The notes: a model not told the origin generated them from the letters alone. A stretch of DNA of 64,000 bases from a virus (IMGVR_UViG_3300000304_000007:17651-81650), one strand, 5' to 3'; shown: positions 30,521-55,600, counted from the first letter of the stretch. Made by a program: numbers and translations.

Positions 30521-31120
30521 TTAATTATTTGACATAATCATTTGGCCTTCCATCCTGTAAGTAGTATTAGGAGAGAAAGTTACTCCCAGATCCAAGTTCA
30601 TAGAATAGATATTACCGTATTGAGTAGTAGCATGTGAAGGAAATTCTACCCCTGTAGTAGAATTGCTCAATATATCCAACCCACTGAGATTCCATGAGAC
30701 AGGGGAAGGATTGCAAGACTGCCAATAGAGTGAAAACTTGGTGCAGGCTGCTCCTGCAGGTGGGACATAAAGTCTGACAGACTCATATGGTATAGTATAA
30801 TTTCTACCCACAGTAATTATAGTACCGGAAGGAACTTTTTCGTTAATGATGGAATAATTCCTTGAACTGTCTTGGAGGGACATAGTGAGTCCATAACAAG
30901 TAGTATAGAAATTAGATAATATCACCACATTACTAAGAATTACAGTACAAGATGGTGATGTATCCTGAGTAAGATTAACACTCTTGGTTAATCCCGAAGA
31001 AGTCTTTACGGTAATAAATCCAGTCCTTGCAGCAGCAATATTTTCAGAAGCGGTGACCGATATGCTTTTGGATCCTGAACCTGAACTTGCACTCAAAGTG
31101 ATCCAACTTGGTTTTGCCAT
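30521..31120 (-). CDS. Fibre tip candidate starting with the C-terminal half of a BACON domain
   Basis: MAKPSWITLSASSGSGSKSISVTASENIAAARTGFITV...VNLTQ, then an unrelated beta-rich domain. Confidence 0.75.
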   Translation of the reverse strand: MAKPSWITLSASSGSGSKSISVTASENIAAARTGFITVKTSSGLTKSVNLTQDTSPSCTVILSNVVILSNFYTTCYGLTMSLQDSSRNYSIINEKVPSGTIITVGRNYTIPYESVRLYVPPAGAACTKFSLYWQSCNPSPVSWNLSGLDILSNSTTGVEFPSHATTQYGNIYSMNLDLGVTFSPNTTYRMEGQMIMSNN

Positions 31121-31154
31121 AATTCTATCCTGATTATTGATTGTTAATTTGTAT

Positions 31155-31724
31155 TTAGCTCAGAATGGTCCAAGCTTCTGTAATAAAATTGAACTGATTG
31201 ATGGGAAGTTTCCAGAGACCATTAGACCCCCAGTCATATCCCCAAGAGTTCTTGAAGTATATGTAATGATGGTCGTACCCATAAGCACAAACAGCATGAC
31301 CTCCGAGTATTTCTGGGCCCTCCCAGAAGTTATTAGAGTCAGACTTAGCAATCATTGCAATTAGAGCACCACCATTCACTAGAATGGCTTCTTTGAGTGA
31401 CGGAAGATTAGTTATTCTGGCATAGGAATGTATCTTATCCTCTTGCCTGAGAATTTCTAAGGCTTCCCTTGGCATCATTCCCTCTAAAGACTTGTCTGCC
31501 CGTCTATCGTAACAGAAGGTGGAATTAATGTCCATGTTCTTCTGTTTCATCTCCCGATAGAAAGCATAGAGTTCATAGAGAGCCTGAGATACGCAAGAAC
31601 CCTCTGCACCCTGGTCAATGACTGGAGTGAGAGGTTCCCTTAAATATTCTACTAGCTGACAGGATCCGTGAAAGATTGCATCCTTCTCGTTGTTTCCTGA
31701 AGCTATACATCCGTAAGTTCTCAT
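31155..31724 (-). CDS. Papain-like cysteine peptidase (C1 family)
   Basis: DQGAEGSC, GGHAVCAYGY, FKNSWGYDWG (Cys-His-Asn triad plus oxyanion Gln). Confidence 0.9.
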   Translation of the reverse strand: MRTYGCIASGNNEKDAIFHGSCQLVEYLREPLTPVIDQGAEGSCVSQALYELYAFYREMKQKNMDINSTFCYDRRADKSLEGMMPREALEILRQEDKIHSYARITNLPSLKEAILVNGGALIAMIAKSDSNNFWEGPEILGGHAVCAYGYDHHYIYFKNSWGYDWGSNGLWKLPINQFNFITEAWTILS

Positions 31725-32059
31725 TTATGTATTTCTCTTCGGAATCTTAAAAGCACTGTGTCTTTGTTTTCTTTCTCGGTTACCGAGATTATGAAGAGTG
31801 AGTCAGCTTTTTGGAAAGCTTCAGTATAGATGTTAGTCTTGACTGAATCGTTTCCATAGAACTGGACTGAACCCCATTCAGTATAGGACTTTAGGGTATT
31901 GAGCTGATGTTCTCGGTAAAGAGAATCAATGAGATACTGAGGTCGGCAGGTATAATATTCTCGGTAGAGATTCCTGGGACCTCCACATGAAAAAAGGGCA
32001 AGCAGCAAGAAAAGACTTGCTGCTACCCATATAAAATAAGCTTTTATGAAATTGTCCAT
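31721..32059 (-). CDS. Lipoprotein
   Basis: Hydrophobic signal ending in the lipobox LFS|C. Confidence 0.75.
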   Translation of the reverse strand: MDNFIKAYFIWVAASLFLLLALFSCGGPRNLYREYYTCRPQYLIDSLYREHQLNTLKSYTEWGSVQFYGNDSVKTNIYTEAFQKADSLFIISVTEKENKDTVLLRFRREIHK

Positions 32060-35000
32060 GATTCATTTGTATGAATGGAGATAGATTTGGTTCCTCCTGA
32101 TGCTGTGAATGACAGTGAAGTAGGGGATACGTTCAGGTAATTAGATTTACCTCCCTGACTAACTGTAACAGATTTTGAGTAAGTCTTACCGTCATGGCCA
32201 GTTCCACTGATAGTTATAGAACCAGAACGATCAGAAGTAGAGGTATTAGCTGTTACCGTTACCCACAGGACAATAGTGTTAGTAGCAACAGCAGTTACCC
32301 AACTCAAAGATTCACTTACATCGATACTAGTATCATCCTGACCCAAGGCAGCTGAAGAATTGGCAGTCATTTTTCTGGATCCTGATGAATATACATCAAA
32401 GTCCTGATATGCTTGAGTAATGTGAACATTAGTCTCTATGCTACCTGCCTCAGAGGAGAAGTTAAGAACTTTCTCAGGATATACATCTGTAATATCTCCC
32501 CACTCTCTTACATTCTCTTCTACCACATTCTCAGCCTGGTACACTACCTCTGTAGTTGCTACAGTATCCATAGTAGCAGTTACAGTAGCTGAACGTGCAC
32601 TACCTTCAATGGTAGTCCTATTTGCCCACGTCACCGTAGTTCCTGAAAGGCTTGCACCTGTACCACTGATGGACAGAGTAGGATTTCCAGACTCGTTTGT
32701 AAGAGCCGAGGTACTTGTAGCCCCTGAAGTAAAGGAGTAGTTCTGAGTTCTAGTACGACTTGCACTTGCCGTGATGGTACAGGTTCCTCCTGATGCAGGA
32801 CATGGGGAAGATTGAGAAGTATATCTATTGGCACTAACGGATACTTGCCAATTTCCATAAGATATATCTCCTGTAGTCTTGACATTTGCTTCCTGATAAA
32901 GTGTAACTGATTTAGTTACCCCACTATGAGTAGCCGTTACTGTTCCGGATCTCCTTGACCCTTCAGTAGTTCCCCTATTTGCCCAAGTGGCTGTAGTACC
33001 ACTAACGGATAATCCTGTACCACTTGCAGAAAGGGAAGGTGTTGCTGTTTCATTGCTTAGAGGTGTCTGAGAAGTTTCCCCAGAAGTATAAGAATAATTC
33101 TGAGTACGACTTCTTGAAGCACTCCTAGTGATAGTACAACTTTCGCCTCCTGCAGCAGCTTCGGTTGAAGTAGTGGTAAAATCCGAAGCACTTATTGATA
33201 CACTCCAAGATCCATAAGATATTCCTTTATCCGTACGAACATTGGCCTGCTGGTATACTGTGATAGTGGTAGTAGCACTTTGACCACCCTCTCCAGTAGC
33301 TGTAACTTTCATGGTACCAACAGAAGTACGAGCCTTCTCGGTCTTGCCCAAGGAATCAGCAGATACAGTAGAGTAAGTGAACTTTACATTACCCGCTCTC
33401 GTATGCTTTGAAGTATAGGATATTGTCTGAGAAGCAGTATATCCTGAAGCAGTAGATACTGATCCTCCTCCTGCGGGTATATCTGCAACTGAGCCAGTAC
33501 CACTTATAGTTACTCTACCATAAATTATGGAGTTAGCCTGTTGTTCTACATTCATAGTCTTAGATGCAGATTTACCATTCATAGTTATGGTACATGTAAG
33601 GGTACCCACTTTAGTCTGAGCTTTAGTAGTAGTGCCAAGATCACTGGCACTTACAGGATCACTATAGGTTACAGTAGCTCCTGATGTAGCATTACTCAAT
33701 GTAGAAGTTGCTCCAGAAGTGTAATTCTGAACCCTGCTTTGTGAATATTGCAGCGTAGAGAAACTTGATACCGTACCTCCAGATGCTGGTATCAGATTAA
33801 CAGCTGTTGTGACAAATGTAGGTATACCATAAGTGATAGAAGTGGCAGCATTTGCCTCCTGATATACAGTGGCAGTCTTTGAAGTAGCACCTTCGTAAGA
33901 AGCCGTTACCGTAGCAGACCTTCTTTCTCCCACAGTGGTTGACCTGTTTGCAGCTGTGACCGTTGTCCCATTGAGAGAGAATCCTGTACCACTGATTGAC
34001 AGAGTAGGAGTAAAAGATGAAGTAGTAGTTGCCCCTGAAGTAAAGGAGTAATTGATTACTCCACTCCGAGTTACTGTCTTAGTACCACCTTCTGCAGGGA
34101 TATCTCCTGAAGGAACAGAAACAGTGATGACTCTGCTTACCTCATTCTTAGAGTTAGCAGCCTGATAAACCATCTTAGTAGCAGAACCAGACTTGCTGTT
34201 GAGAGTTACCGTACAGGTTATTTCATCTACTTCAGTCCTTGCAGATACGGTTGTTCCCTTAGTAGCTGCAGATACTGTAGACCATTTGACGGTACCCCCA
34301 CTAGTGATAGTAGTAGGCTTTGAAGAACCTGAGGTATAAGTATCGGTCTTAGTCTGACTGTAAGAAGCAGTACCAGTAGACACTGAACCACCCTTTGCAG
34401 GGATATCTGCAACAGAAGAGATACTTACAGTAGGATTACTGTAGGTGGTTCCGGTAAGGGCATTTGCTGCCTGCTGAACCGTAACCTGCTTCTGGGTTGT
34501 CTTCCCGTTCAATGTGACCTTGACGGTCGCAGTCGTAACGGTAGTCACACCTGAAACATTCGTGCCCTTTGTTCCAGCAGTCACAGCACCATTCGATGTA
34601 GAAACTGATGTTCCAGAATAGGTAACTGTACCCCCGGAAGTAATCGTTCCCCCGCCCGTGGTAGAACCATTCCAACCCCAAGTTTGTGAATAGGAAACTG
34701 TTGGTGTGACTGTGCCACCCTTTGCAGCAATGGTAGGATAGGAGACGTTCAGGGTAATGTCTGAATAAGACTTCGCACCTGTTGCCTGTGAAACTGTAAC
34801 ATCCTTGCTTGCAGTCTTAGAACCCTCTCCAGTAGCCTTGATTGTAACAACATAACTCCTTGTGGAAGTTGTAGAATTCGCAGTGACTGTAACCTTGTTC
34901 CCACTCAATGAGAAGCCTGAAACTGCTGTTTTCTGTGTATAAGTAAGTGACACATTTCCAGCCCGTGACTTTCCAGAAGTGAATGATACCGTCTGAGAAG

Positions 35001-38000
35001 CACTTGCAGATATAGTGACGGTTCCACCTGTGGCAGCAACTGTTGCCGGATTGCTTGCATTGAGGATCACGTTACCGTAAGTTGCAGTGTTAGCCTGCTG
35101 AGTAATAGGGGTTGTAAGAGTATCAGTATCAGAATCTGATATAGTTCCCCCTCCATAAGTATCACTGATAGTAAGGGTCAGATTCAGAGTAGAAGATACA
35201 TTCCCACAACTACGGGCAGCACCTTCAGTAGTGCCTCTATCAGCTGCTGTAACAACTCCGGTTGAAGAATTGATACTGAAGCCTGTTGCTGTTACCATAG
35301 ACCAAGTTCTAGAAGAACCAATGGTATATCCAGTATAGCTTCCAGCACTTAAGCTATTTGTACCTCCTGAAGACCAAGTAATATTGGCTTTACCTGCCAG
35401 AGTAGGTGATTTAGTTCCACCTGATGCAGGAATTGCTCCAGTAGGGTAACTAAAGTTAGCAGTAGCTACCATCTTAGTAGGCACATTCTTTGCCTGATAT
35501 ACATCAAGAGATTTTGTTGCAGTCTTAGAACCCTCACCAGTTGCAGTTGCAGTCAAGGTTCCAAGTTTGGTCCTGTTCTTAATAGTAGTACCAAGATTTG
35601 AACCTGATATTGCAGTACTGTAGGTAATCTTCACTGTACCAGCTCTTGTGGACTCCGAAGTATAAGTGATTGTCTGACTTGCAGATATCCCACTCATAGA
35701 GGAAACAGAACCGCCGGATGCTGGGATATCAGAAACAGAGCCTCCTGAGATAGTAACAGCACCATAGGAAGTGATTGCATTTGCAGCCTGCTGAACAGTG
35801 AATGTCTTTGTTGCAGCCTTGTTATTAAGGGTAACCTTGACTGTAGCAGTAGTGACATTAGTTGCACTTGATACAGTAGTTCCCTTAGTGCCTGCAGTCA
35901 CAGCTCCGGTTGAAGTGTTGACTCCTGTTCCACTGAATGAAAGGGCAGCACCCGTAGTAATTGTTCCCCCATTAGTAGTGGATTCATTCCATCCCCATGT
36001 CTGAGAGTATGTAACTGTAGGAGTAACAGTTCCACCCTTTGCAGCAATGGTAGGATAAGTGAATCCAGTAATGACAGGAGTAGCATAAGACTTGACCCCG
36101 AGAGATTGATTGAATACTACATCTTTAGAAGCAGTCTTGGAACTCTCACCCGTAGCCTTGACTGTAACTGTATACCCATTCCTTGCAGAAGTTGTCTTGT
36201 TCTCTGTAACAGTGACTATATTTCCACTTAGAGAGAATCCAGTCATAGCAGCCTTCTGAGTGTAAGTCACAGATACATTTCCTGCCCTTGTTGCACCAGA
36301 AGTATACTGGATAGTCTGAGAGTAAATAGGATCTATCCTGTATTCTCCACCTCCAACATCACAAGTTATAGGCGTCTGTACAGTGAGAGATACATCACCG
36401 TACTCAGTTATTGTATTTGCAGCCTGGAATACTGCCACTTCATCCTCTGCAGAAGTCTGACCATTAAGGGTAACTGTGGCAGTAAGTATACCGACCTCTG
36501 TACGGGCTTTTGCAGTTGTTCCCAGAGATTCTGCAGATACTGGATCCCCATAAGTAATGGTTCCCCCTGTAGTATATTCTGGACCCGTTGAAGTTGCCCC
36601 GGAAGTATAATCCCAAGTAGAGAGCTGCTTATAAGTGATTGTACCAGAAGAGACTGAACCTCCAGATGCAGGGATGTCTGCAGCGGTGAAAGTAAGGATA
36701 TTAGGCTTAGCGAATACCTGAGTTCTCTCGTTGACTCCCTGAGTAACAGGGGTAGTCAAAGTAGAAGATTTAGAGTCAGTAAGTTCTCCACCCCCATAGG
36801 TATCATTTATGGTGAGTACCCATTTCAGAGTAGAAGTTACATTACCTGAAGACCTGCTTCCCAAAGTAGTACCCATAGTTGCAGCAGTTACTGCACCTGT
36901 AGAAGAGTTTATGCTGAACCCTGTTGCAGCTACCATTGAATAGGTTCTTGTACCCTGAACAGAGAATCCTGCCTTAGCTCCTGAAGTTGATTCCTCGGAA
37001 GTGGATCCTGAAGACCAAGTTATAGTAACTTTTCCGGATACTGATACATTCTTGGTGCCTCCATAAGGAGCAAGAGCTCCTGCAGCATAACTGAAGGTAG
37101 GTACTGAAGTGATTGCTGTAGGAACGTTCTTAGCCTGAGTACAGGTAGCAGTCAGAGTATCCTCAGCTGTCTTAGACCCCTTTGCATTAAAGTTAGCAGA
37201 TGGAGTCCAAGTACCTGATTTGAGTCGGCTTACTGTAGCAGAAGTACGGGCATTGCCTATGGTAGTTCCACGATGAGTAGCAGTGAGGACTCCGGTATCG
37301 GTATTTACAGCAGTGAACCCATTCTGAGACTTGGCAAGAGAGTAAGCTACTGCAGGTACTTCCCAAGTACCATAAGTAGAAGAAGGAACTACAGCACTTG
37401 ACTGACCAGAAGTATAATGGAATCTCGGAGTCATCTCTGTGACTTTCGGAGTTGCAGAAGTTGCTCCTGCACCTATTTCATCGTAAGAGAAGGAACCTCC
37501 CTCCCATTCTACTTCCTCGATATAGTTACCCTCCTGATTTATCTGAAGGTTGCCGAATACCTCTTCTCCAGTTTCTGGGGCATTCACTACAGCTGATACA
37601 ATACAAGATCTCTGATTGCCGATGTAAGTTCCTCTGTTTGCTACTGAGAGAGTAGAACCCTGAAGAGTGAATCCCTCAGAGTCTTCCAGAGTGAAGGTGG
37701 CTTCTACGGCCTTAGTATAGATTATCTCGTCCCCTATCTTTGCCTCTAGCTGAGCAGTGAGAGGAAGTTCTGCACCTGCAGCATGTACTGATGTAGAGGT
37801 AGAAGAAAGGATGAGCCTATAGTTGTATACTGCATTAGTCTGGATTACCTCAAGAGTAGCCTGAGACTGGTAAGCAGATACTACTCCAGCCGTATTGGTC
37901 TTAAATACGAGATTTTTCTGACGAGTCTGTATCTTCAGGTTTTCATCAGACCCTATATATACTGTCTGAGAACTTTCATTGGGTTTTATCCAGACGTAAA

Positions 38001-38121
38001 GGTTCTCTCCAGTACCATCATTCCAAGGGATAGTGAATTTGGTATATCCTTCCAAATTAGTTGCTCTTGGAGAGGGATTTGATGCCCTTAATACGACTCT
38101 TTTTATGGGTTTCTTAGTCAT
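32044..38121 (-). CDS. Large fibre/adhesin (2025 aa) of tandem ~100-aa Thr/Ser/Gly-rich Ig-like repeats with terminal BACON elements
   Basis: Recurrent IPAxGG...YSQ...YTSG...LGTTxKART...VYQxAN repeats; one full BACON and a half BACON at the C-terminus. Confidence 0.85.
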   Translation of the reverse strand: MTKKPIKRVVLRASNPSPRATNLEGYTKFTIPWNDGTGENLYVWIKPNESSQTVYIGSDENLKIQTRQKNLVFKTNTAGVVSAYQSQATLEVIQTNAVYNYRLILSSTSTSVHAAGAELPLTAQLEAKIGDEIIYTKAVEATFTLEDSEGFTLQGSTLSVANRGTYIGNQRSCIVSAVVNAPETGEEVFGNLQINQEGNYIEEVEWEGGSFSYDEIGAGATSATPKVTEMTPRFHYTSGQSSAVVPSSTYGTWEVPAVAYSLAKSQNGFTAVNTDTGVLTATHRGTTIGNARTSATVSRLKSGTWTPSANFNAKGSKTAEDTLTATCTQAKNVPTAITSVPTFSYAAGALAPYGGTKNVSVSGKVTITWSSGSTSEESTSGAKAGFSVQGTRTYSMVAATGFSINSSTGAVTAATMGTTLGSRSSGNVTSTLKWVLTINDTYGGGELTDSKSSTLTTPVTQGVNERTQVFAKPNILTFTAADIPASGGSVSSGTITYKQLSTWDYTSGATSTGPEYTTGGTITYGDPVSAESLGTTAKARTEVGILTATVTLNGQTSAEDEVAVFQAANTITEYGDVSLTVQTPITCDVGGGEYRIDPIYSQTIQYTSGATRAGNVSVTYTQKAAMTGFSLSGNIVTVTENKTTSARNGYTVTVKATGESSKTASKDVVFNQSLGVKSYATPVITGFTYPTIAAKGGTVTPTVTYSQTWGWNESTTNGGTITTGAALSFSGTGVNTSTGAVTAGTKGTTVSSATNVTTATVKVTLNNKAATKTFTVQQAANAITSYGAVTISGGSVSDIPASGGSVSSMSGISASQTITYTSESTRAGTVKITYSTAISGSNLGTTIKNRTKLGTLTATATGEGSKTATKSLDVYQAKNVPTKMVATANFSYPTGAIPASGGTKSPTLAGKANITWSSGGTNSLSAGSYTGYTIGSSRTWSMVTATGFSINSSTGVVTAADRGTTEGAARSCGNVSSTLNLTLTISDTYGGGTISDSDTDTLTTPITQQANTATYGNVILNASNPATVAATGGTVTISASASQTVSFTSGKSRAGNVSLTYTQKTAVSGFSLSGNKVTVTANSTTSTRSYVVTIKATGEGSKTASKDVTVSQATGAKSYSDITLNVSYPTIAAKGGTVTPTVSYSQTWGWNGSTTGGGTITSGGTVTYSGTSVSTSNGAVTAGTKGTNVSGVTTVTTATVKVTLNGKTTQKQVTVQQAANALTGTTYSNPTVSISSVADIPAKGGSVSTGTASYSQTKTDTYTSGSSKPTTITSGGTVKWSTVSAATKGTTVSARTEVDEITCTVTLNSKSGSATKMVYQAANSKNEVSRVITVSVPSGDIPAEGGTKTVTRSGVINYSFTSGATTTSSFTPTLSISGTGFSLNGTTVTAANRSTTVGERRSATVTASYEGATSKTATVYQEANAATSITYGIPTFVTTAVNLIPASGGTVSSFSTLQYSQSRVQNYTSGATSTLSNATSGATVTYSDPVSASDLGTTTKAQTKVGTLTCTITMNGKSASKTMNVEQQANSIIYGRVTISGTGSVADIPAGGGSVSTASGYTASQTISYTSKHTRAGNVKFTYSTVSADSLGKTEKARTSVGTMKVTATGEGGQSATTTITVYQQANVRTDKGISYGSWSVSISASDFTTTSTEAAAGGESCTITRSASRSRTQNYSYTSGETSQTPLSNETATPSLSASGTGLSVSGTTATWANRGTTEGSRRSGTVTATHSGVTKSVTLYQEANVKTTGDISYGNWQVSVSANRYTSQSSPCPASGGTCTITASASRTRTQNYSFTSGATSTSALTNESGNPTLSISGTGASLSGTTVTWANRTTIEGSARSATVTATMDTVATTEVVYQAENVVEENVREWGDITDVYPEKVLNFSSEAGSIETNVHITQAYQDFDVYSSGSRKMTANSSAALGQDDTSIDVSESLSWVTAVATNTIVLWVTVTANTSTSDRSGSITISGTGHDGKTYSKSVTVSQGGKSNYLNVSPTSLSFTASGGTKSISIHTNESWTIS

Positions 38122-38124
38122 ATG

Positions 38125-38448
38125 TTATATCCTTGAGTATCCAGCTTTAACATCCTCGTAAATAGAATAAGTCTGAGTGAATGTTGCTATCACCAGATTA
38201 TCAGCCTGCTGTACAATACGAAGTACAGCCTGAGCCTGAGCTCCCTCTGGAGAATTCTCATTTGGCTCAACCCCTTGAAATCTGATTACTTTGGTCCTCT
38301 CAACTCCAGTGTTGTTGAGATCAGAAGATACTGGGATGACTGTATCACCTGCAGCAATCTTCGAAAAATCTAAATAAAAAAAGTCCCGGGTCCCATCTTC
38401 CCACGGGATCGGGACATAAGTTCCGGGAGCTAAGGATGATCCAGGCAT
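38125..38448 (-). CDS. Small fibre-cluster protein with a half-BACON-like IPWxDG module
   Basis: IPWEDGT...VSSDLNNTGVERTKVIRF...LRIVQQA, paralogous to the N-terminus of 32044..38121 (IPWNDGT...GSDEN...RQKNLVF...LEVIQ). Confidence 0.7.
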   Translation of the reverse strand: MPGSSLAPGTYVPIPWEDGTRDFFYLDFSKIAAGDTVIPVSSDLNNTGVERTKVIRFQGVEPNENSPEGAQAQAVLRIVQQADNLVIATFTQTYSIYEDVKAGYSRI

Positions 38449-39791: not shown

Positions 39792-40430
39792 CTAGTTTGC
39801 AGAAACTGTGAACGTAGTGTTCGTAGTAACTGTAACCTCTACCTCGGTACCGTCCTGAGGAACATTTACTGATGTAGGGCTTACCTCGATAGTAGGATCA
39901 CCAGCAGCCTGTTTCAAAGTGATGGTAGCAGAAATACCAGCACCACCCTGACCCTGAACTGTGATAGTCTGGGTTCTTTCCTCTACAGTCTCATTTGCAG
40001 AAGCTGAAAGAGTAAGAGTGAATACGTACTGGGCTTTTGCACCAGGGTCACCTGTGATAGCTGTTCCGGAAGTAGCTGGATCACCGTTAGCCTCGTACTC
40101 TATTGCAGAGATATCAGCAGCGATAACCTCTCCGCTTCCCTTTGAGAAGGTAAGCATTGCAGAGTTTGACTTACCAGTGATAGTTACCGTACCTCCGGTC
40201 TTAACAACGGCCATTTCTGAACCATTGTCAAAACTTACAAACTCAGCTTTCGGAAGTAAGTTTGCAGTGAAGGTTTTCGGTGAGTCTACACCCGCAGCCT
40301 GAACTGAGAATACCTGGGTCTGTTTTACACGGTTACCAGGGTTAACCGGACTAGCTTTAACTTTGAGAGTGGTATTGCCTGATCCCGATCCCGGGGTCAC
40401 GAGAATACCGTTTTTAGTTACATCTGCCAT
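39792..40430 (-). CDS. 212-aa structural protein with a BACON second half at the N-terminus, an Ig-like core and a BACON first half at the C-terminus
   Basis: N-terminus: GILVTPGSGSGNTTLKVKASPVNPGNRVKQTQVFSV. C-terminus: TIEVSPTSVNVPQDGTEVEVTVTTNTTFTVSAN. Confidence 0.8.
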   Translation of the reverse strand: MADVTKNGILVTPGSGSGNTTLKVKASPVNPGNRVKQTQVFSVQAAGVDSPKTFTANLLPKAEFVSFDNGSEMAVVKTGGTVTITGKSNSAMLTFSKGSGEVIAADISAIEYEANGDPATSGTAITGDPGAKAQYVFTLTLSASANETVEERTQTITVQGQGGAGISATITLKQAAGDPTIEVSPTSVNVPQDGTEVEVTVTTNTTFTVSAN

Positions 40431-40455: not shown

Positions 40456-40683
40456 TTAACTTACTGAGAATGTTGAATTGGTATATACCTCGTTGGTATC
40501 TTCATAGTTGTTCCTTTCTTCCAAATATACCCTCTCTTTTTCAAGTTCAAGATATTTGAAGTCGGGAGCAGGCCAGATGATGACACCATTGAGTACTACC
40601 TGTTTGATTTTCCTTCGATTGTGAATAATCTGACCAACCTTTCGGAGATTGAAGATTATTTCCGAAGGTCTGTACGGCATCAT
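40456..40683 (-). CDS. Small structural protein ending in a half-BACON-like segment
   Basis: IKQVVLNGVIIWP motif and C-terminal YLEL...VYTNSTFSVS. Confidence 0.7.
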   Translation of the reverse strand: MMPYRPSEIIFNLRKVGQIIHNRRKIKQVVLNGVIIWPAPDFKYLELEKERVYLEERNNYEDTNEVYTNSTFSVS

Positions 40684-48140: not shown

Positions 48141-50625
48141 CTACCCCGTTACCCATCTGCTTCCTGATGTGATTGGTGATAGCTTTGCCAAATATGGCAT
48201 CATCTGAGTAGGTATCTCCCTCAAGGTCAATATCTACTGCAGAGTTGTTACTCTTATGCTTACCCATTGCAACAGGTCTACCAGTGCCATCATAGATGAA
48301 GGTATAAGCTTCATTGGTGAAGAAAGGATCCTTGACTATGATGTTGTCTTCTCGTATATCCTTTTCCAGTCCCTCTACAATCACTGACCTGTTCTTGTTG
48401 GTAGTGATCCATCCAGGGATCTCTTCAACTTCTGGTCTGGTCTTGCCCTTTTTCCTGAGCAGTTTCTGAGAGTAATAGAGGTTTGGATACCCCTCATCCT
48501 GTAGAATGATGGTGACTGCAGCACCAACATCATTTGTCTCTGGAGCAAGCTTAGCATAGTTGAATTGAGTTCCTATGTCACCAAGAAGTCTGGCATATTT
48601 GTCAAGTGGAATTCTACCCTTGTAGCAGGCATTCTCTTCCCCATCCTTGTCCATCACAGTAAATGCAGAGTAGTCTGTTGCTCTACCAGTTGCACAGTCT
48701 GCACCGATGAAGTATTCTTTCTTGGGATCTACTTCGTTGAACTGCTTATACTGACCTCTAAGTCTAGTGGTGAGAATCGGATAATCGAAAAGACATTCTT
48801 CAATAGCCTTGATATCAGCAGGATCAAATACTGTATTACCTGAAGAAAGGAAGTCTCCATCAATCTCTTGGGCTGTTCTCTTAGGACCAAGAGCTTTTGC
48901 CATGGTATTATACCAGTTGTCATCCCTTTCGGGGTGCATTCTCCAGTAGAGACGAATTGGATTGATCCCGTTTACTCCCTGAACTGCATCTACCCAAGTG
49001 GAATGATAGAAGCCACCGATTCCCAAAGGCGTGTTGTGGCTTGGTAATGAGGGATTTACAAAGTAAGACTGATCTCCCTCTACGGAAATATCATATATCT
49101 TATCTTTGAATACTTCTAGGAGTTCTACTTTAGATAAAGTCAAACCATTAGCTCTACGTTCAGAAATAATCTTATTCAGATATTTCTTAGGTATAGAAAG
49201 GCCAGTTCTCCGGTATATCTCTTCTAAGATTATCTTTTGATAACCATTACCATTACTACCCGAATTCTTGAGATGTTTTACTCTTGGCCACATCTCTTTG
49301 ATTATACCCACTACTTGCAAATTCTTAATCTTACCCACTCTACTACCAACTGCCAGATTATAATTTATCTCAGTAGCTCTTCTAGTATTTTCAGAAACGG
49401 TAACTATCTCCAAGTTAGTAACGTAATTATCTTGTTTATTGCCGTTTATGTGATCTATGACATATCCTTTTGGTATGGGTCCTATGAAATGTTCAGCAAC
49501 TAACCTATGTATATTGAAGTTCTTGCTATGATTCTTATTCCAAAGTTTTATACGGAGATACCCCTGTAAATTGGGTCTACCCTTTTTCTCTACCCATCCA
49601 TTTGGTTTTTCAACAAATATCTGACCCAAGTTATTGATTTTATACTGAGGATAACCCTTAACCCTTTTCCACCTGATCTTGATAGGTTTTTGAGTAGTTT
49701 TGGGGAGCTTAAGAGAATCTATTCCCAGATCATACTCAATTACATTGAGATCCATTTCTAGAATCTCTTTGACGGGTTTCCATCCCCAAGTAGTCAATAA
49801 TTTATGAGCAGGGGTACATTTCAATTCAGTACCTTTTGAAGTCTTTATCTTCCATGTAAGTAGTTCACCTTTGTTGACAGAAGCCAATACTTTTTTCCAC
49901 TGTAGATTGTGAGTAAGCACCTCGATATTGAGCATAGAGATATCTCTTATACCCATTTCAGAAGGGCATACAGTATCTATTCTCATCAACCCATTACGAG
50001 TAACTATCTGAGTGTCACCGGTAACACAAGAATTAATAATTGCAGCACCTCCAGTTGACAGGGTAGGAAGAGCTGATGCCCAGATCTGATTTGCCCATCT
50101 TACTGCTGCTGCTTCATCAATGATAAGCAGAGAAAGTGATTCAGACCTACCGGCATTCTCCGAAGTAGGAATAGACTCTATCAGAGACCCGTTGCTGAAT
50201 TCCATTGCTTGGGATGAGCCGTATTCTCCGAATCTTCCGTTTATGATCGGAGTTTGAAGGTACCAGGGGAGATTCTTGTACATGAACTTTATCCTCTTGA
50301 GTACCTTCTTAGCAACGGTATCTTTGATAGAGATGATGTTTACTTTCTTGTTATCATGATACATGCAGAGCCAGAGAGAGAAAAGAGACATCAGCTCGGT
50401 GATTCCTGCCTGCCTGAATTTCAGGATTATATTGAATCGGTGAATGAGAAAGTTCCATAGCACTGATCTCTGGAATGGATACAGAGAAAAGGGAACCATC
50501 CCTCGAACTGGATGAACTACCTTGACATGGTTTGAGAAAGCATAGGGATCTCGAGTTACTCTTATCAGCTCTCTCAACTGATCTGGAGTAAGTGATCTAT
50601 TCTGTATTTCTTCTTTCTTTGCCAT
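48124..50625 (-). CDS. terL: Terminase large subunit with an intein
   Basis: LYPFQ, KFRQAGIT, IIDEAA, INS|TP.G split by the intein; nuclease domain IGADCATG, APETN, DDAIF. Confidence 0.95.
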   Translation of the reverse strand: MAKKEEIQNRSLTPDQLRELIRVTRDPYAFSNHVKVVHPVRGMVPFSLYPFQRSVLWNFLIHRFNIILKFRQAGITELMSLFSLWLCMYHDNKKVNIISIKDTVAKKVLKRIKFMYKNLPWYLQTPIINGRFGEYGSSQAMEFSNGSLIESIPTSENAGRSESLSLLIIDEAAAVRWANQIWASALPTLSTGGAAIINSCVTGDTQIVTRNGLMRIDTVCPSEMGIRDISMLNIEVLTHNLQWKKVLASVNKGELLTWKIKTSKGTELKCTPAHKLLTTWGWKPVKEILEMDLNVIEYDLGIDSLKLPKTTQKPIKIRWKRVKGYPQYKINNLGQIFVEKPNGWVEKKGRPNLQGYLRIKLWNKNHSKNFNIHRLVAEHFIGPIPKGYVIDHINGNKQDNYVTNLEIVTVSENTRRATEINYNLAVGSRVGKIKNLQVVGIIKEMWPRVKHLKNSGSNGNGYQKIILEEIYRRTGLSIPKKYLNKIISERRANGLTLSKVELLEVFKDKIYDISVEGDQSYFVNPSLPSHNTPLGIGGFYHSTWVDAVQGVNGINPIRLYWRMHPERDDNWYNTMAKALGPKRTAQEIDGDFLSSGNTVFDPADIKAIEECLFDYPILTTRLRGQYKQFNEVDPKKEYFIGADCATGRATDYSAFTVMDKDGEENACYKGRIPLDKYARLLGDIGTQFNYAKLAPETNDVGAAVTIILQDEGYPNLYYSQKLLRKKGKTRPEVEEIPGWITTNKNRSVIVEGLEKDIREDNIIVKDPFFTNEAYTFIYDGTGRPVAMGKHKSNNSAVDIDLEGDTYSDDAIFGKAITNHIRKQMGNGVVVLPE
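49033..50028 (-). mobile_element. Intein (332 aa) carrying a NUMOD4-HNH endonuclease
   Basis: Starts CVTGDTQI, ends YDISVEGDQSYFV...SHN followed by Thr; internal WKRVKGYPQYKIN...IHRLVAEHF...DHINGNKQDN. Confidence 0.95.
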
Positions 50626-51379: not shown

Positions 51380-51548
51380 GATTAGCTATGCTAATCGTCC
51401 TAAAGGACGAATACAAGAGATATAAGCTATGCTATATCTCTTGTATGAGTAGAGTATGATTATATTATTTCCCTTGTTTTTTAGGGGGATTATAGGGGGT
51501 TAATTCTCTTTTTCTGGTTCTCTTTTTCTCTTATTAGGGGGTTAAAGG
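51380..51548. repeat. Cluster of inverted and direct repeats upstream of the packaging/head operon
   Basis: gattagc-tat-gctaatc; tcgtcc-taaa-ggacga; 14-bp perfect IR 51411-51424 / 51433-51446; AGCTATGCTA twice; repeated AGGGGG and TCTCTTTTTCT. Confidence 0.8.
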
Positions 51549-52576
51549 GTACCTTTTGTAACTTCCGAGATAGCTTTCTCCAGGCACTGAGAAAACCAAA
51601 GGCCAATCTCATAGACTGCCCCCTTAGTCAAGGTATTCCTACCCTTGTTCAACCAGTAGGTTCTCTTCTTCCTGTCAAAGTACACTTGAAAATCTTCTGG
51701 GAATCCCATGATGACACGATATTCATCTAGACCCATGATCTTTCCTCTGTGATTGAATTGCCTTGAAGATGGTCTCACTGTCATTGGATATGCTCTTGCC
51801 TTGTTTCGATAGACCCCGGGAAGAGTCTTCATCTTAGTTCCCGGCATTGGCCACTTGTACATATCCTTGAAATCGGTTCTCCAGAGTTTTCTTACCTCTT
51901 CAACGGTGAGATTCTTCTTCTCGGGCAACTTCCTAGAATCATACATTGCCAATACTTTGTTCTTGTCTTCCCTGTAGTTCAGTTTCTTTCTTCTCATCTG
52001 ATACAGTTCCCAGCATTTCTTAAGCTTATTAACTGAGTACACTTTGGCAAAATACTGCACTAATTCCTGATGATCCCTCCTGATGCCAATCAACAGGAGA
52101 CGTTTTCTAGAAACTTGAGAATTACCAAAAGCAGACACTGAATAGCAATGAACAATGAATTCATAATCCGGAAACTTCCATTTCCACTCATCCAGAGGAA
52201 TCAAGTCTAACAGCTTGGGAAGATTCTCCATTGCCCATATTTTCGGCCTAAAATGGTCAATTTGGCTCAAATATAGATTAAGAGTCTTATCCTCTCTCGG
52301 TTTGCCCAGAGACTTCTTCCGGGAATATGAAAATACACTAGAGTGTCCACAAGAGGGAGAACCCAGTATTACATCTACCCTCTTCTTAAGAAATTGGTCT
52401 GGAGTCTTAGCAAAAGGTATGCCAGGGAAATTCAATTCCCACTGCTCTTCTTGAGAGCTATGAAAAACCCCTCTTGGCTCCACATTTCCGATAATCCGTA
52501 AATTTGAATTATTCAAAATTGGGTACAGGAGGGCGCCCTGGGCTGCACAACAGCCTAACACGTTGATCTTCTTCAT
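51542..52576 (-). CDS. DNA (cytosine-5) methyltransferase-like protein
   Basis: GSPSC (motif IV), MENLP (VI), QVSRKRLLLIG (VIII), YRVIMGFPEDF (IX); motif I atypical (GCCAAQG). Confidence 0.85.
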   Translation of the reverse strand: MKKINVLGCCAAQGALLYPILNNSNLRIIGNVEPRGVFHSSQEEQWELNFPGIPFAKTPDQFLKKRVDVILGSPSCGHSSVFSYSRKKSLGKPREDKTLNLYLSQIDHFRPKIWAMENLPKLLDLIPLDEWKWKFPDYEFIVHCYSVSAFGNSQVSRKRLLLIGIRRDHQELVQYFAKVYSVNKLKKCWELYQMRRKKLNYREDKNKVLAMYDSRKLPEKKNLTVEEVRKLWRTDFKDMYKWPMPGTKMKTLPGVYRNKARAYPMTVRPSSRQFNHRGKIMGLDEYRVIMGFPEDFQVYFDRKKRTYWLNKGRNTLTKGAVYEIGLWFSQCLEKAISEVTKGTL

Positions 52577-53294: not shown

Positions 53295-53304
53295 TATATT
53301 TGCA
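53295..53304 (+). promoter_or_regulatory. TAnnTTTG promoter box
   Basis: TATATTTGCA, 26 nt before the ATG at 53331. Confidence 0.55.
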
Positions 53305-53330
53305 TCAGAAAAACATAAAAATATAGGATT

Positions 53331-53546
53331 ATGGGACAGAGAAACTGGATAGGAGGCATGCTTGGATGGCTCATCACAGATGCCTTTTTGAAAAACATCA
53401 TTAGTGGAGCAGAGGGAGCTGCCTCTGGAGGCAAATTCATAAAAGACTGCTTTGATTCCTGTGATGCAGATATCAAGGCTGCCTTCTGGAAGAAAGCTCT
53501 TCTCATAGTGGGAACTGGGATATTGTTAACTCTAATATTTGCATGA
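53331..53546 (+). CDS. Small membrane protein
   Basis: Hydrophobic N- and C-terminal segments. Confidence 0.65.
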   Translation: MGQRNWIGGMLGWLITDAFLKNIISGAEGAASGGKFIKDCFDSCDADIKAAFWKKALLIVGTGILLTLIFA

Positions 53547-53805
53547 CATGGAAACTCTTACAATCGGATGGAAAATTTTCTGGTGCTTATTCTGCCTGTC
53601 TTATGTAGCAGGATTTGCAATAGTCAAGGCTATTGACAAGATAATCTATGATGAGGGGAGGGACACTAAGTCTTGGCCACACTGGGCAACTCTTCTCACA
53701 CTGTGGGCATTCTCCCCAGTGCTTGTAATAAAGACTGCAATATGGGCAGTTATCACCTGGTTTAGGCTATCAAAGAAGTTTTCTAAAGCTACACACACAA
53801 AATAA
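53539..53805 (+). CDS. Small two-TM membrane protein
   Basis: Two hydrophobic helices and a basic tail. Confidence 0.7.
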   Translation: MHDMETLTIGWKIFWCLFCLSYVAGFAIVKAIDKIIYDEGRDTKSWPHWATLLTLWAFSPVLVIKTAIWAVITWFRLSKKFSKATHTK

Positions 53806-53829
53806 CCCGGGTAAAATGCCCGGGTTATT
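53801..53829. terminator. Bidirectional terminator
   Basis: Perfect 11-bp IR aataacccggg / cccgggttatt between convergent genes. Confidence 0.8.
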
Positions 53830-53845
53830 CTTTGAGTATGCTGGA

Positions 53846-55600
53846 TTATTCTATAGTCCAGCTTTCATTTGTGTCTATATCTATGGTCTTAGATCCACCA
53901 GATGCTTCAAATGAGAGTGAAGCAGGGCTAACATTCAAGTAGTTGTCGGCTTTAGCCTGAGTTATAGTCCAAGAGAAGTGATCGGATCCCAGATCACCAA
54001 CCTGAAGATCCCCCTCTAATACACCACTCCTTACTAGATTAGTCTTATTCTCATCAATGGTTACTCCCACCATAGGCTGGTCGGGGTATTCATAAGTACC
54101 ATCTGGAGCCATAGTGGCATTAGAGAATTCAACCCCTGACCAAGATATATCTCCCGGGGCAGTCTTTACTCCATTGATCAAATCTTCTGGATATATGGTA
54201 TCAGTAGCATTAGAAGTATATTTGGCATTAATTGCTACTGCAGCTACTACTGCAATGCTTGCTGAAGCCTGTCCTGAATTAGCATCTATGCTTATTGAGG
54301 ATCCTGCAACGAAAGGTGCCTCATAATTTCCTGAAGAACCTTCTAACTTAGATAGATACCCCTGAGTGAAGGTTACAGATTCTACCTTGTTCTCTTCCTG
54401 GTATATCTCTAGAGTATTCGAAGTACCAGTCTTGCCATTGATAGTGACTGTACAGTATACATCAGCAATCTTGGTTCTAGCTTTTGGTGTAGTGCCCAGA
54501 CTATCTCCGCTTATGTAGGCATAATCTCCATCCCAGCCGCCAGCACCTCCGAACCATTCTATATCAAATCCAATAGGATCATCTCCTGTTGACCATTCTA
54601 TGCTACCACCCCCAGTAGTAGAACCATTATATCCCCAAGTCTGGGTAAAGGATACAACCAGAACTGTATCATTTCCATCAGCAGGAGCATCTGGTGATTC
54701 GGGTTTTGAATAGTTTATGGTGACTACAGGATCTCCATAGGTTATCTGGGCAGCACTCTGAGTGATTGAACAAGTTGCTGAGGTACCATGAGATCCAGAG
54801 AAGGATATGGTAGCATTCCTTGCTGAGTCTCCTGTGTATTCCGTCACAGTCACTGTCACAGTATTTCCAGAGGTTTTCACTGTAGCCCAAGTCTGGTTGG
54901 AGCTAGCAGTCCAAGTATCATTAGATGTGACTGTAATGTCAAAGGATCCTCCCTTGCCCTCTACTGTCTTAGAGGTAGGGTTCACTGAGAGGTTGTATCC
55001 CTGACCTACCTGAGTTACCGAGAGTGTAGCACTTCCACTATGTGATCCCCTGAAGGTGATAGTTCCGGTTCTAGCCTCTGCTCCTGAGTTAGCCGACTGA
55101 GTAGTGAATGTTACCGTGTCATTGCCTGACCCAGTAGATTTGCTTACTCCCAGCCATTCTGGAGCTCCTGTGACAGTCCAGCCCTGATTTGCTGTCACCG
55201 TCACTGCTTTGTAGGATCCAGAGGTGTTTTCCAGACTGATTGAGGTAGGATTGATGCTGATTGTGTAGGCATCGTGTTTTGCCTGTTCTACTGATACTCT
55301 GACTTCCACTTCTTCTGAGCGGAATAGCAGAGTAGCTGATCGAGAGGATGAGGCAGAGGTATTCTCTGTCACATTCAGAGTAATCTCTTCAGTGTCAGGT
55401 TCTTTGACCTCAGAGCCTCCGCTCTTCTTAGATACCGTTAGCCAGGAAGTTTCTCCTGACACATACTCCCATGGTTTGTTGAAAGTAACCACTAGAGTAG
55501 TGGAGTCTGCTCCATAGCTAGGCTTCCAGCTTAAAGGTTGGATGGAGAACGAGGTAGGCTGGCCGACCTTCCTGTTCTGCATGAAAAATAAGGTATTCAT
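53846..55600 (-). CDS. BACON-repeat fibre protein (three full BACONs, one 2025-aa-type repeat, one further domain, C-terminal half BACON)
   Basis: WTVTGAPEWLGVSKSTGSGN...ARTGTITF; SLGTTPKARTKI; ends YLNVSPASLSFEASGGSKTIDIDTNESWTIE. Confidence 0.88.
   Translation of the reverse strand: MNTLFFMQNRKVGQPTSFSIQPLSWKPSYGADSTTLVVTFNKPWEYVSGETSWLTVSKKSGGSEVKEPDTEEITLNVTENTSASSSRSATLLFRSEEVEVRVSVEQAKHDAYTISINPTSISLENTSGSYKAVTVTANQGWTVTGAPEWLGVSKSTGSGNDTVTFTTQSANSGAEARTGTITFRGSHSGSATLSVTQVGQGYNLSVNPTSKTVEGKGGSFDITVTSNDTWTASSNQTWATVKTSGNTVTVTVTEYTGDSARNATISFSGSHGTSATCSITQSAAQITYGDPVVTINYSKPESPDAPADGNDTVLVVSFTQTWGYNGSTTGGGSIEWSTGDDPIGFDIEWFGGAGGWDGDYAYISGDSLGTTPKARTKIADVYCTVTINGKTGTSNTLEIYQEENKVESVTFTQGYLSKLEGSSGNYEAPFVAGSSISIDANSGQASASIAVVAAVAINAKYTSNATDTIYPEDLINGVKTAPGDISWSGVEFSNATMAPDGTYEYPDQPMVGVTIDENKTNLVRSGVLEGDLQVGDLGSDHFSWTITQAKADNYLNVSPASLSFEASGGSKTIDIDTNESWTIE

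What the first reader, a model, noticed from the sequence alone, without database searches (positions are those of the whole stretch)
30521..55600. Split-BACON system: fibre proteins ending in one half of a BACON domain and others starting with the complementary half
Seen in sequence: four proteins stop right after the first half of a BACON-type beta-sandwich, all with the terminal motif TN-x-[ST]-[WF]-[TS]-[IV]-[SE]. They are the 2025-aa protein (32044-32142, YLNVSPTSLSFTASGGTKSISIHTNESWTIS), the 584-aa protein (53846-53944, YLNVSPASLSFEASGGSKTIDIDTNESWTIE), the 212-aa protein (IEVSPTSVNV...VTTNTTFTVSAN) and the 75-aa protein (YLEL...VYTNSTFSVS). Other proteins begin with the missing second half: 199 aa (MAKPSWITLSASSGSGSKSISVTASEN..ARTG.ITV...VNLTQ) and 212 aa (ILVTPGSGSGNTTLKVKA..N.GNR). 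Weaker IPWxDG variants start the 107-aa and 2025-aa proteins. Joining TNESWTIS to KPSWITLSASSGSG recreates the continuous BACON pattern found intact in the 584-aa protein (TANQGWTVTGAPEWLGVSKSTGSG). Established knowledge: BACON repeats occur in gut-phage fibres, and strand complementation builds chaperone-usher pili. Inference: split BACON halves act as plug-and-socket linkers that concatenate separate gene products into a modular, tip-exchangeable fibre. There may be two specificity classes: TNESW donors with the KPSW acceptor, and TNxTF donors with the 212-aa acceptor. I do not know of a description of this, but could not search.
Basis: partly seen in the sequence, partly recalled or inferred. 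Interest (0 to 1): 0.92.

Follow-up and report, generated by a model that had tools for sequence, protein, structure and literature searches.

The report
Split BACON domains joining phage fibre proteins
In this human-gut phage and many relatives, one small Ig-like (BACON) domain is cut at the same loop so that some proteins end with its first three strands and others begin with the rest; the halves most likely snap together to join separately made fibre or adhesin proteins and exchangeable tips, a joining principle I could not find described for viruses.

Summary
The 2025-aa and 584-aa proteins end, and the 199-aa protein begins, at the same loop of a BACON fold (position 31/32 of an 84-position profile). 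Joined in silico they give one gap-free domain (88 bits).

The same cut recurs in at least six other phage gene layouts. A donor-ending gene usually lies directly upstream of an acceptor-starting gene. Of 42 homologue clusters of the big fibre, 33 end at the same residue: the last 31 aa are 84% identical, the preceding 100 aa 34%. Synonymous sites are saturated, so selection acts on the peptide. Eight clusters of 165-215-aa proteins share the MAKPSW half-domain start and have unrelated tips.

Intergenic gaps differ in length and frame, which excludes translational fusion. A complex prediction rebuilds the sandwich: ipSAE 0.62, best control 0.00. That mark was reached by 51 of 78 solved complexes and 2 of 108 mismatched pairs, and the model may be recalling intact BACON.

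The 212-aa and 75-aa "second class" and the IPWxDG starts rest on synteny and homology, not profile scores. No physical evidence exists. I found no published description. This scan flagged the same phenomenon on other genomes (e1-3685180 and others).

The parts
32044..38121 (-). 2025-aa Ig-repeat fibre/adhesin protein
   Evidence: Translation. Homologue clusters of 1114-2243 aa lie on 82-107 kb phage contigs.
32044..32139 (-). Class-3 donor half (strands A, B, C of BACON; last 31 aa plus TAA) of the 2025-aa protein
   Evidence: My profile, positions 2-31, ends at 31. 74-100% identical across 33 homologue clusters. Forms the whole predicted interface (residues 1994-2025).
53846..55600 (-). 584-aa BACON protein with three intact BACON domains and one fibre repeat
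   Evidence: Pfam BACON 80.3 bits, BACON_2 53.6 bits. My profile hits at residues 18-107, 113-198 and 203-283. Five close relatives keep the same end.
53846..53941 (-). Class-3 donor half of the 584-aa protein
   Evidence: Ends at profile position 31. 77% aa but only 67% nt identity to the 2025-aa donor; pS 0.73, pN 0.20.
55007..55264 (-). Intact BACON domain (residues 113-198), used as the uncut reference
   Evidence: 73.6 bits on my profile, positions 1-83. It holds the continuous WTVTGAPEWLGVS stretch that spans the cut point.
30521..31120 (-). 199-aa tip protein: acceptor half followed by a variable C-terminal domain
   Evidence: Translation. One 83%-identical relative; seven further clusters share only the first ~55 aa.
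30962..31120 (-). Class-3 acceptor half (strands C' to G; residues 1-53)
   Evidence: PF13004 positions 8-60/61, 36.7 bits. My profile, positions 33-83. Predicted interface residues 1-56.
39792..40430 (-). 212-aa linker protein: weak acceptor-like N-terminus and donor C-terminus (TNTTFTVSAN)
   Evidence: Homologous over its full length to the L140 205-aa linker (30% identity, E 1e-18). That linker ends TNESWTIE and is followed by an MAKPSW tip. My profile: N-terminus 13.5 bits, C-terminus 24.6 bits.
40456..40683 (-). 75-aa protein with a donor-like end (TNSTFSVS), 25 nt upstream of the 212-aa gene
   Evidence: Same position as the 73-aa donor mini-protein upstream of the 215-aa linker in L171. 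Itself only 1.8 bits, and BLASTP finds no alignment. Tentative.
38125..38448 (-). 107-aa protein with an IPWEDG domain after a 13-residue leader; possible acceptor for the 212-aa donor
   Evidence: Aligns with residues 6-76 of P0183, whose IPWNDG domain starts at residue 6 (E 5e-5). Weak on the BACON profile (5.7 bits).
37837..38121 (-). N-terminal IPWNDG domain of the 2025-aa protein, preceded by 30 residues
   Evidence: Residues 31-139 align with P0183 residues 6-111 (E 2e-9). The AF2 model (pLDDT 70) puts two strands, 8-13 and 27-32, in the leader. Probably self-complete.
31155..32059 (-). Two genes between the donor and acceptor genes: a 112-aa lipoprotein and a 189-aa papain-family peptidase (context, not shown to take part)
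   Evidence: Lipobox LFSC. Peptidase_C1, 30.1 bits against a cut-off of 20.7. The same pair lies near acceptor tips in L140, L142/L143, L166, L168/L169 and L171.

Best explanation
**The cut.** A BACON beta-sandwich is divided between two polypeptides at the loop between strands C and C'.
- 'Donor' proteins end with about 31 residues (strands A, B, C; consensus YLNVSPTSLSFxASGGTKxIxIDTNESWTI[SE], then a stop).
- 'Acceptor' proteins begin right after Met with the remaining ~52 residues (MAKPSW[IV]TLS..SG.G...N....R.G..T[IV]KT.SGLTK.V...Q).

**Assembly (inferred).** The two pieces are made separately. Neither half has a complete core, so they co-fold into one interdigitated domain with strand pairs A'-G, B-E and C-F. 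This locks the proteins end to end without a covalent bond or a chaperone.

**In this phage.** The 2025-aa Ig-repeat stalk and the 584-aa BACON protein would each carry the 199-aa tip. Synteny with a relative suggests a longer chain: 75 aa, then 212 aa, then 107 aa or the stalk, then the 199-aa tip, with a different junction flavour at each step.

**Consequence.** The constant halves act as a standard connector. Stalks and tips can be swapped between phages behind it.

**Shown:** the termini, their conservation, co-occurrence, separate translation and model compatibility.
**Inferred:** actual binding, position on the virion and the order of the chain.
For: 1. **Exact complementarity.** The donor ends at profile position 31 and the acceptor Met sits at 31. 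Fusion gives one gap-free domain of 87.6-88.7 bits, more than either intact domain of the 584-aa protein scored (73.6 and 62.9).
2. **Recurrence in other phage layouts.**
   - L001-L022 type: 53-aa donor, then 550 aa, then 700-935-aa tips or an 82-aa cap.
   - L061 type: four genes in a row.
   - Also L086, L140, L170 and L171.
3. **All observed cuts fall at one place.** 43 of 43 distinct N-truncated ORFs start at position 31. Among 150 database representatives, 7 start at position 31 (all with Met) and one Met-starting protein at 30, against 7 scattered truncated starts, most lacking Met.
4. **Selection on the halves.** In 33 of 42 homologue clusters the donor is 74-100% identical (mean 84%), against 34% for the preceding 100 aa. 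Donor pS is 0.76 (saturated) against pN 0.17; acceptor 0.67 against 0.27.
5. **Constant start, variable tip.** Acceptor residues 1-52 have 19 invariant columns across 9 proteins whose C-terminal parts do not align.
6. **Separate translation.** Gaps are 18-96 nt, and 67/68/69/70 nt among near-identical relatives, so all three frames occur. They carry hairpins and in-frame stops.
7. **Complex prediction.** Residues 1880-2025 of the stalk with the 199-aa protein gave ipSAE 0.62-0.63 in three runs; the best of 3 controls was 0.00. The mark was reached by 51 of 78 solved complexes and 2 of 108 mismatched pairs. The runs agree in 100% of contacts, and the partner pLDDT is at least 67-68. The interface is exactly the two halves.
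Against: - There are no physical data.
- The predictor may place the halves together from memory of intact BACON domains, so the pass shows compatibility, not binding.
- No fused 'Rosetta-stone' homologue with an intact domain at a class-3 junction was found.
- In this genome the donor and acceptor genes are not adjacent: 0.9 kb and 22.7 kb apart. There are also two strong donors for one strong acceptor.
- Proteins with both ends could close on themselves or polymerise.
- The L061-type 227-aa protein carries a 35-residue leader before AKPSW, which does not fit a simple free acceptor.
- The second and third junction classes score poorly as BACON: 75+212 gives 19.8 bits, and 212+107 does not merge into one domain.
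Confidence: 0.7

Rival explanations
1. The half-domains are scars or homology arms of module shuffling. Gene boundaries fell inside a BACON domain because recombination between phages happens there. The halves are tolerated as linkers and do not bind each other.
For: - Tips and stalks are mosaic, and breakpoints lie just behind the acceptor half.
- BACON repeats are known hotspots of repeat evolution (PMC6949934).
Against: - Conservation is at the peptide level, not the DNA level: donor DNA is 60-75% identical with saturated synonymous sites and pN 0.17.
- The halves are far more conserved than the adjoining protein.
- The cut is always at the same residue.
- Half-only mini-proteins (82-aa acceptor; 53-89-aa donors) make no sense as scars.
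Confidence: 0.08
2. The halves do complement, but not to build a heteromeric chain. Double-ended proteins (212 aa, 550 aa and others) close on themselves or polymerise head to tail. Small partners merely cap exposed halves for folding or for regulating copy number.
For: - Several proteins carry both ends.
- Cap-sized proteins exist.
- A hairpin between the donor and tip genes could set stoichiometry.
Against: - The 2025-aa, 584-aa and 199-aa proteins each have only one kind of end, so they must pair in trans.
- A 212+212 fusion in silico scores no better than its parts: 35.9 bits against 24.6 + 13.5.
- Gene order runs donor to acceptor in chains of up to four genes.
Confidence: 0.14
3. Donor and acceptor ORFs are expressed as one polypeptide through read-through, frameshift, ribosome bypass or splicing, so the domain is really intact.
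For:
- An earlier scan note (e1-2911874) reports one junction that is a single in-frame TAA in another phage.
- Hairpins sit in some gaps.
Against: - Gap length and frame differ among near-identical relatives: 67, 68, 69 and 70 nt.
- Gaps hold further in-frame stops.
- Every acceptor keeps its own ATG followed by Ala or Pro.
- In this window two genes, or 22.7 kb, separate the partners.
- Gap sequences are unrelated between lineages.
Confidence: 0.03

Closest known systems
Donor-strand complementation and exchange in chaperone-usher pili (Fim, Pap)
   Same: An incomplete Ig-like fold in one subunit is completed by strands from the next, which gives non-covalent, very stable fibres.
   Different: There a single strand is donated, a periplasmic chaperone and an usher are needed, and the subunits are secreted. 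Here three strands meet four or five, both sheets and the core are shared, no chaperone or usher gene is evident, assembly would be cytoplasmic, and the subunits are phage proteins.
Type V pili of Bacteroidia (FimA/Mfa1)
   Same: Same host phylum. Ig-like subunits are joined by strand insertion from the neighbouring subunit.
   Different: Those subunits are lipoprotein precursors activated by a protease, and they donate C-terminal strands into a groove. The 199-aa acceptor has no signal peptide or lipobox. The neighbouring lipoprotein and papain-like genes have no shown link.
Engineered split Ig-like domains (SpyTag/SpyCatcher, SnoopTag, DogTag)
   Same: A beta-sandwich is cut in two and reassembles spontaneously to join proteins. 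The result is a modular 'plug and socket'.
   Different: Those are man-made, asymmetric (a short tag) and lock through an isopeptide bond. Here the split is natural and near half-and-half. No conserved Lys-Asn/Asp pair is evident: Lys3 is replaced in MAIASW and MALPDW starts.
Multi-protein phage fibres and receptor-binding proteins with a conserved N-terminal anchor (T4 gp34-37; anchor-branch tailspikes of Klebsiella and G7C-like phages)
   Same: Separate gene products are joined end to end. A constant N-terminal attachment part carries a variable distal part that is exchanged between phages.
   Different: Known anchors are complete, usually trimeric domains that dock on another folded domain. 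Here the anchor is half of a monomeric domain that exists only once both chains are present.
BACON tandem-repeat and Ig-like adhesin proteins of gut phages (crAssphage gp64; Flandersviridae-related myoviruses)
   Same: Same domain family, the same kind of phage and the same genomic setting next to structural genes. Such proteins conferred epithelial and mucus adherence when displayed on phage K1F (PMC6949934; PMC13370021).
   Different: Neither paper mentions domains cut at protein ends or joining of proteins through them.

Membership tests
BACON domain (Pfam PF13004 / BACON_2 PF19190) | Match to the family profile above the curated cut-off | tested here: met
   199-aa protein: PF13004 36.7 bits against a cut-off of 25. 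584-aa protein: 80.3 and 53.6 bits. 2025-aa C-terminal part: 31.0 bits.
BACON domain (Pfam PF13004 / BACON_2 PF19190) | A complete domain (all strands) within one polypeptide | tested here: not met
   The terminal copies cover only BACON_2 positions 42-92 (199 aa), or positions 2-31 of my 84-position profile (2025 aa and 584 aa). Only the in-silico fusion covers 2-83.
Chaperone-usher donor-strand complementation | The subunit lacks only the last (G) strand; one strand is donated | tested here: not met
   The cut lies after strand C. The donor supplies three strands, which pair with G, E and F of the acceptor in the model.
Chaperone-usher donor-strand complementation | Dedicated periplasmic chaperone and outer-membrane usher genes | not tested
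   Pfam scans of 20 neighbouring proteins returned no such family. I made no targeted search of the whole genome.
Type V pilus subunits (FimA/Mfa1) | Lipoprotein signal peptide and a protease-removed N-terminal strand | tested here: not met
   The acceptors start MAKPSW with no signal peptide or lipobox. A leader ending in K/R occurs only in the L061-type 227-aa protein.
Self-crosslinking split Ig-like domains (CnaB/SpyCatcher type) | Conserved Lys plus Asn/Asp plus a catalytic acid that form an isopeptide bond | tested here: inconclusive
   Lys3 is invariant in MAKPSW tips but is replaced in MAIASW and MALPDW acceptors. No geometry was examined.
Phage fibre or receptor-binding proteins with a constant N-terminal anchor and a variable tip | Conserved N-terminal part and unrelated C-terminal parts among relatives | tested here: met
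   19 invariant columns within residues 1-52, and nothing conserved beyond about residue 55, in 9 proteins from different 50% clusters.
Phage fibre or receptor-binding proteins with a constant N-terminal anchor and a variable tip | Presence in the virion and a role in binding | not testable with these tools
   Context only: the genes lie between the capsid gene and the sheath gene. The adherence data for related BACON proteins come from the literature (PMC13370021).

The most novel reading that the evidence does not exclude
Gut phages carry a natural, addressable protein-joining code. Several mutually exclusive flavours of split BACON junction fix the order in which up to four or five gene products chain into one fibre. 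The flavours seen are: mini-protein to linker; linker to IPWxDG start; TNESW to MAK..W start. One flavour (TNESWTIS / MAKPSW) is shared so widely that stalks and tips are interchangeable between unrelated phages. This would be a chaperone-free viral counterpart of pilus strand complementation and a ready-made orthogonal toolkit.
Probability: 0.3. Interest if true: 0.9.

Novelty: new variant of a known kind. Interest (0 to 1): 0.8.

Why it matters
**For phage biology**
- It would explain how the abundant BACON and Ig-like adhesins of prevalent gut phages are attached and exchanged.
- It would show why many 'BACON-domain' ORFs look truncated in annotations.
- It gives a sequence signature (…TNESWTI[SE]-stop, and MAKPSW… at a start) for pairing stalks with tips across metagenomes.

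**For structural biology**
- It would be a natural case of a protein domain that exists only as a heterodimer of two gene products, used as a connector.

**For engineering**
- It offers small natural split tags for joining proteins, or for retargeting phages of commensal Bacteroidota.

It can be tested directly with simple co-expression experiments.

Tried and rejected
- **Stop-codon recoding.** Rejected: all three stops are used and read-through meets more stops.
- **Invertible or duplicated DNA between the two donor ends.** No long repeat was found, and the two ends are only 67% identical in DNA.
- **Megablast of the fibre region against named phages.** No match.
- **The search for related loci with short donor peptides.** The 60-aa query gave 57 pattern hits, none confirmed.
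- **Iterating a BACON profile on the fetched loci alone.** Too few intact domains. I rebuilt it from database representatives.
- **AF2 of the 212-aa protein without an alignment.** pLDDT 43, unusable for the cis-closure question.
- **AF2 of the 2025-aa N-terminus with 19 sequences.** pLDDT 70. The Foldseek PDB search gave nothing at E <= 0.001.
- **Searches with the 199-aa protein.** PDB sequence search with the whole protein: no hit. Atlas search with the tip, residues 55-199: only weak leads.
- **Acceptor-start pattern in 185,579 cellular genomes.** 21 hits, all chance ORFs.
- **Class-3 donor-end pattern in IMG/VR.** One stretch, with no BACON ORF at the match.
- **BLASTP of the 75-aa protein against the L171 73-aa mini-protein.** No alignment.
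- **Literature.** Seven searches and three papers gave no description of split BACON. The library is incomplete, so this is not proof of novelty.


Full report
**Setting.** The window is part of an 88,680-bp virus record rated complete. The region of the finding is one minus-strand late operon:
- a terminase large subunit with an HNH intein, then portal, protease and major capsid protein;
- a PKD-domain protein, several small proteins and the Ig-rich proteins of the finding;
- a tail-sheath-like protein.

The nearest capsid relatives are uncultured human-faecal phages, at most 69% identical. All three stop codons are used, and reading through any of the stops in question meets further stops at once. 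The short ends are therefore real ends.

**The observation.** The quoted sequences are all present.
- Pfam places residues 3-52 of the 199-aa protein on positions 8-60 of the 61-position BACON model, and on positions 42-92 of the 94-position viral BACON_2 model. The protein begins in the middle of the fold.
- For one coordinate system covering both halves, I built a profile from 365 intact, internal BACON domains found in database representatives (84 positions).
- On it the 2025-aa and 584-aa proteins end at position 31. The 199-aa protein has its Met at 31 and matches from 33 to 83.
- Donor plus acceptor without Met aligns as a single domain from 2 to 83 with no indel at the joint. It scores 87.6 and 88.7 bits, against 31.7 and 51.6 for the separate halves. 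Either intact domain of the 584-aa protein scored gives less.

**Is it chance?** No.
- A search for relatives of the 199-aa protein in viral contigs returned 22 loci. In each, a 550-aa protein starts MAKPSWIK… at the same point and ends …ESNDSWTLE at the donor point. About 69 nt later comes a 700-935-aa protein that starts MAKPSWIT….
- A pattern scan for the start codon context brought further layouts:
  - a run of four genes with donor ends and acceptor starts in L061-type phages;
  - an 89-aa donor followed after 9 nt by a 534-aa acceptor/donor in L086;
  - an 82-aa protein that is little more than the second half, directly behind the 550-aa donor in other contigs.
- A 53-aa donor-only ORF sits just upstream of the 550-aa gene.
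- Look-ups of database relatives added three more layouts: L140 (244 aa, then 205 aa, then a 215-aa tip), L170 (181 aa, then 1544 aa) and L171.
- Across all fetched loci, every one of 43 distinct ORFs that begins inside a BACON domain begins at profile position 31. Twenty distinct ORFs end at 31.
- Among 150 database representatives picked only for similarity to the 199-aa protein, 7 truncated proteins start at position 31, all with Met, and one Met-starting protein starts at 30. The other 7 truncated starts are scattered, and most lack a Met.

**Selection.**
- A search with the last 166 residues of the 2025-aa protein found 42 other clusters. Thirty-three of them are proteins of 1114-2243 aa on 82-107 kb contigs that end at exactly the same residue. 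The six clearly bacterial BACON proteins in the same list have intact domains only.
- In those 33 the final 31 residues are 74-100% identical to the window's (mean 84%). The 100 residues before them average 34%.
- At the DNA level the donors are only 60-75% identical. The proportion of synonymous differences is 0.76, which is saturated; the non-synonymous proportion is 0.17. For the acceptor's first 29 codons the values are 0.67 and 0.27.
- The two donors inside this genome follow the same pattern: 77% identical in protein and 67% in DNA.
- The peptide is therefore what is conserved, not a stretch of DNA kept for recombination.
- On the acceptor side, eight clusters (at 50% identity) of 165-215-aa proteins start at residue 1 with the same half-domain, 52-61% identical over about 55 residues. 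Intact repeats are 28-44% identical. These proteins continue with unrelated sequences. Their alignment has 19 invariant columns within residues 1-52 and nothing conserved beyond.

**One chain or two?**
- The gaps between donor and acceptor genes in the survey are 18-96 nt and unrelated in sequence between lineages.
- Among near-identical relatives of one lineage they are 67, 68, 69 or 70 nt, so all three frames occur.
- They hold further stops and a G+C-rich hairpin followed by an A/T-rich stretch.
- Each acceptor has its own ATG followed by Ala or Pro. By the known specificity of methionine aminopeptidase the Met should be removed, leaving AKPSW…. That is the length needed for a gap-free domain (inference).
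- In the window the partners are separated by two genes, or by 22.7 kb.
- Translational fusion is therefore very unlikely.

**Structure prediction.**
- I folded residues 1880-2025 of the big protein with the whole 199-aa protein. The ipSAE was 0.62, 0.63 and 0.62 in three runs. The best of three controls was 0.00.
- By the tool's calibration, that mark was reached by 51 of 78 solved complexes and 2 of 108 mismatched pairs. The runs share 100% of contacts, and the partner's pLDDT is 68-80.
- The interface is residues 1994-2025 against residues 1-56, with these pairings:

| Donor residues | Acceptor residues | Strand pair |
|---|---|---|
| 2003-2007 | 48-53 | A'-G |
| 2010-2016 | 18-24 | B-E |
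| 2021-2024 | 38-40 | C-F |

- The donor thus feeds both sheets of the sandwich and shares the core. This is a true split fold, not an added edge strand.
- The caveat is serious. A model that knows BACON domains will put two halves together, so this shows compatibility rather than binding.
- The Atlas model of the 199-aa protein alone is poor (pLDDT 0.47). That agrees with an incomplete fold but is weak evidence.

**The weaker claims.**
- *212-aa protein.* It is homologous over its whole length to the 205-aa linker of L140 (30% identity, E 1e-18). That linker starts MPFIEISPNSGSGNG just behind a donor-ending 244-aa protein, and it ends TNESWTIE just before an MAKPSW tip.
- *Gene order in L171.* The order is: 73-aa donor mini-protein; 215-aa linker; a 1654-aa stalk that begins MATAQIPWNDG and ends TNESWTIE; with an MAKPNW tip encoded nearby. 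This mirrors the window's 75 aa, 212 aa, (423 aa, 107 aa), 2025 aa and 199 aa.
It also suggests at least three junction flavours that set the order of assembly.
- *What remains unsupported.* The profile scores are low: 75+212 gives 19.8 bits, 212+107 does not merge, and L171 215+1654 gives 27.3 bits. The 75-aa protein has no BLAST similarity to the 73-aa one.
- *2025-aa N-terminus.* The IPWNDG motif is preceded by 30 residues. A moderate AF2 model (pLDDT 70) folds them into two extra strands. This N-terminus is probably self-complete.

**What it is.**
- The most likely reading is a natural split Ig-like domain used as a connector between separately made fibre or adhesin proteins, with standard halves and exchangeable stalks and tips.
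- Where the fibre sits is open. The genes lie between the head and sheath genes.
- Published work on Flandersviridae-related myoviruses shows that their BACON and Ig-like proteins confer epithelial and mucus adherence when displayed on another phage (PMC13370021). Head or neck adhesin fibres are therefore as plausible as tail fibres.
- The acceptor-start pattern is absent from 185,579 representative cellular genomes. This fits a feature of virulent phages.

**Known or new?**
- The principle is known from chaperone-usher and type V pili, where an incomplete Ig-like fold is finished by a neighbour, and from engineered split domains.
- This case differs in several ways: the split is near half-and-half, it sits in a viral setting, no chaperone is evident, and it links different gene products in a defined order.
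- Seven literature searches and three papers on phage BACON proteins gave no description of it. The library is incomplete.
- Earlier notes of this scan report the same phenomenon on four other genomes. These are AI notes, not independent evidence, but they agree with what I tested here.

**Limits.**
- Everything is computational.
- No fused homologue with an intact domain at a class-3 junction was found.
- This genome has two strong donors and one strong acceptor.

Noticed in passing
window 48124-50625 (-): The terminase large subunit carries an intein with an HNH homing endonuclease. Pfam: Intein_splicing 37.8 bits at residues 232-531, HNH_3 60.9 bits at 372-415. The terminase matches flank the insert.
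   Followed up: partly
window 31155-32059 (-); also L140 5703-6601, L142 9520-10406, L166 3-874, L168 8026-8918, L171 2663-3630: A small lipoprotein (lipobox LFSC) and a ~190-aa papain-family (C1) peptidase, with motifs resembling the papain catalytic QG..GSC, GGHA and NSWG, travel as a pair. They lie next to acceptor-tip genes in several different genome layouts. They could be a lysis cassette, a glycoprotein-degrading enzyme or a maturation protease. No link to the split domains has been shown.
   Followed up: partly
L046 (- strand of the locus, 3502-3750), L060 3817-4065, L105; L001-L022 about 9791-9954: Mini-proteins consist of little more than one half-domain: an 82-aa acceptor-only protein behind the 550-aa donor, and a 53-aa donor-only ORF ahead of the 550-aa acceptor. 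They look like caps or anchors for free halves.
   Followed up: partly
L001-L022 intergenic 11654-11722; L061-type gaps of 96 nt: A G+C-rich hairpin followed by an A/T-rich stretch sits between the donor and tip genes. Length polymorphism in the A run shifts the frame among near-identical relatives. This may be an attenuating terminator that sets tip dosage. A similar hairpin lies 20 nt past the 2025-aa stop (window 32001-32024).
   Followed up: no
L061, L112, L121, L126: the 227-aa gene: This double-ended protein has a conserved 35-residue leader ending in K or R directly before [AS]KPSW. Its start context matches that of neighbouring genes, so the leader is probably real. It may be a masked acceptor, displaced or cleaved on assembly.
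   Followed up: partly
window 32044-38121 (-) and homologues P0165-P0206: The big Ig-repeat protein varies from 1114 to 2243 aa among relatives that share both ends. Internal ~100-aa repeats show up as diverged direct DNA repeats. This is repeat-number evolution in the stalk.
   Followed up: no
window 42180-43088 (-): A 302-aa protein with a PKD domain (49.5 bits) lies two genes downstream of the major capsid gene. It is a possible Hoc-like head decoration.
   Followed up: no
window 51542-52576 (-): A C-5 cytosine DNA methylase (45.2 bits) lies upstream of the terminase region.
   Followed up: no
L166 1052-1474: A close relative of the window phage has an extra 140-aa ORF between the peptidase and tip genes. 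It begins VSITQAKAD, like the end of a BACON domain in the 584-aa protein. It may be a remnant or an alternative cassette.
   Followed up: no
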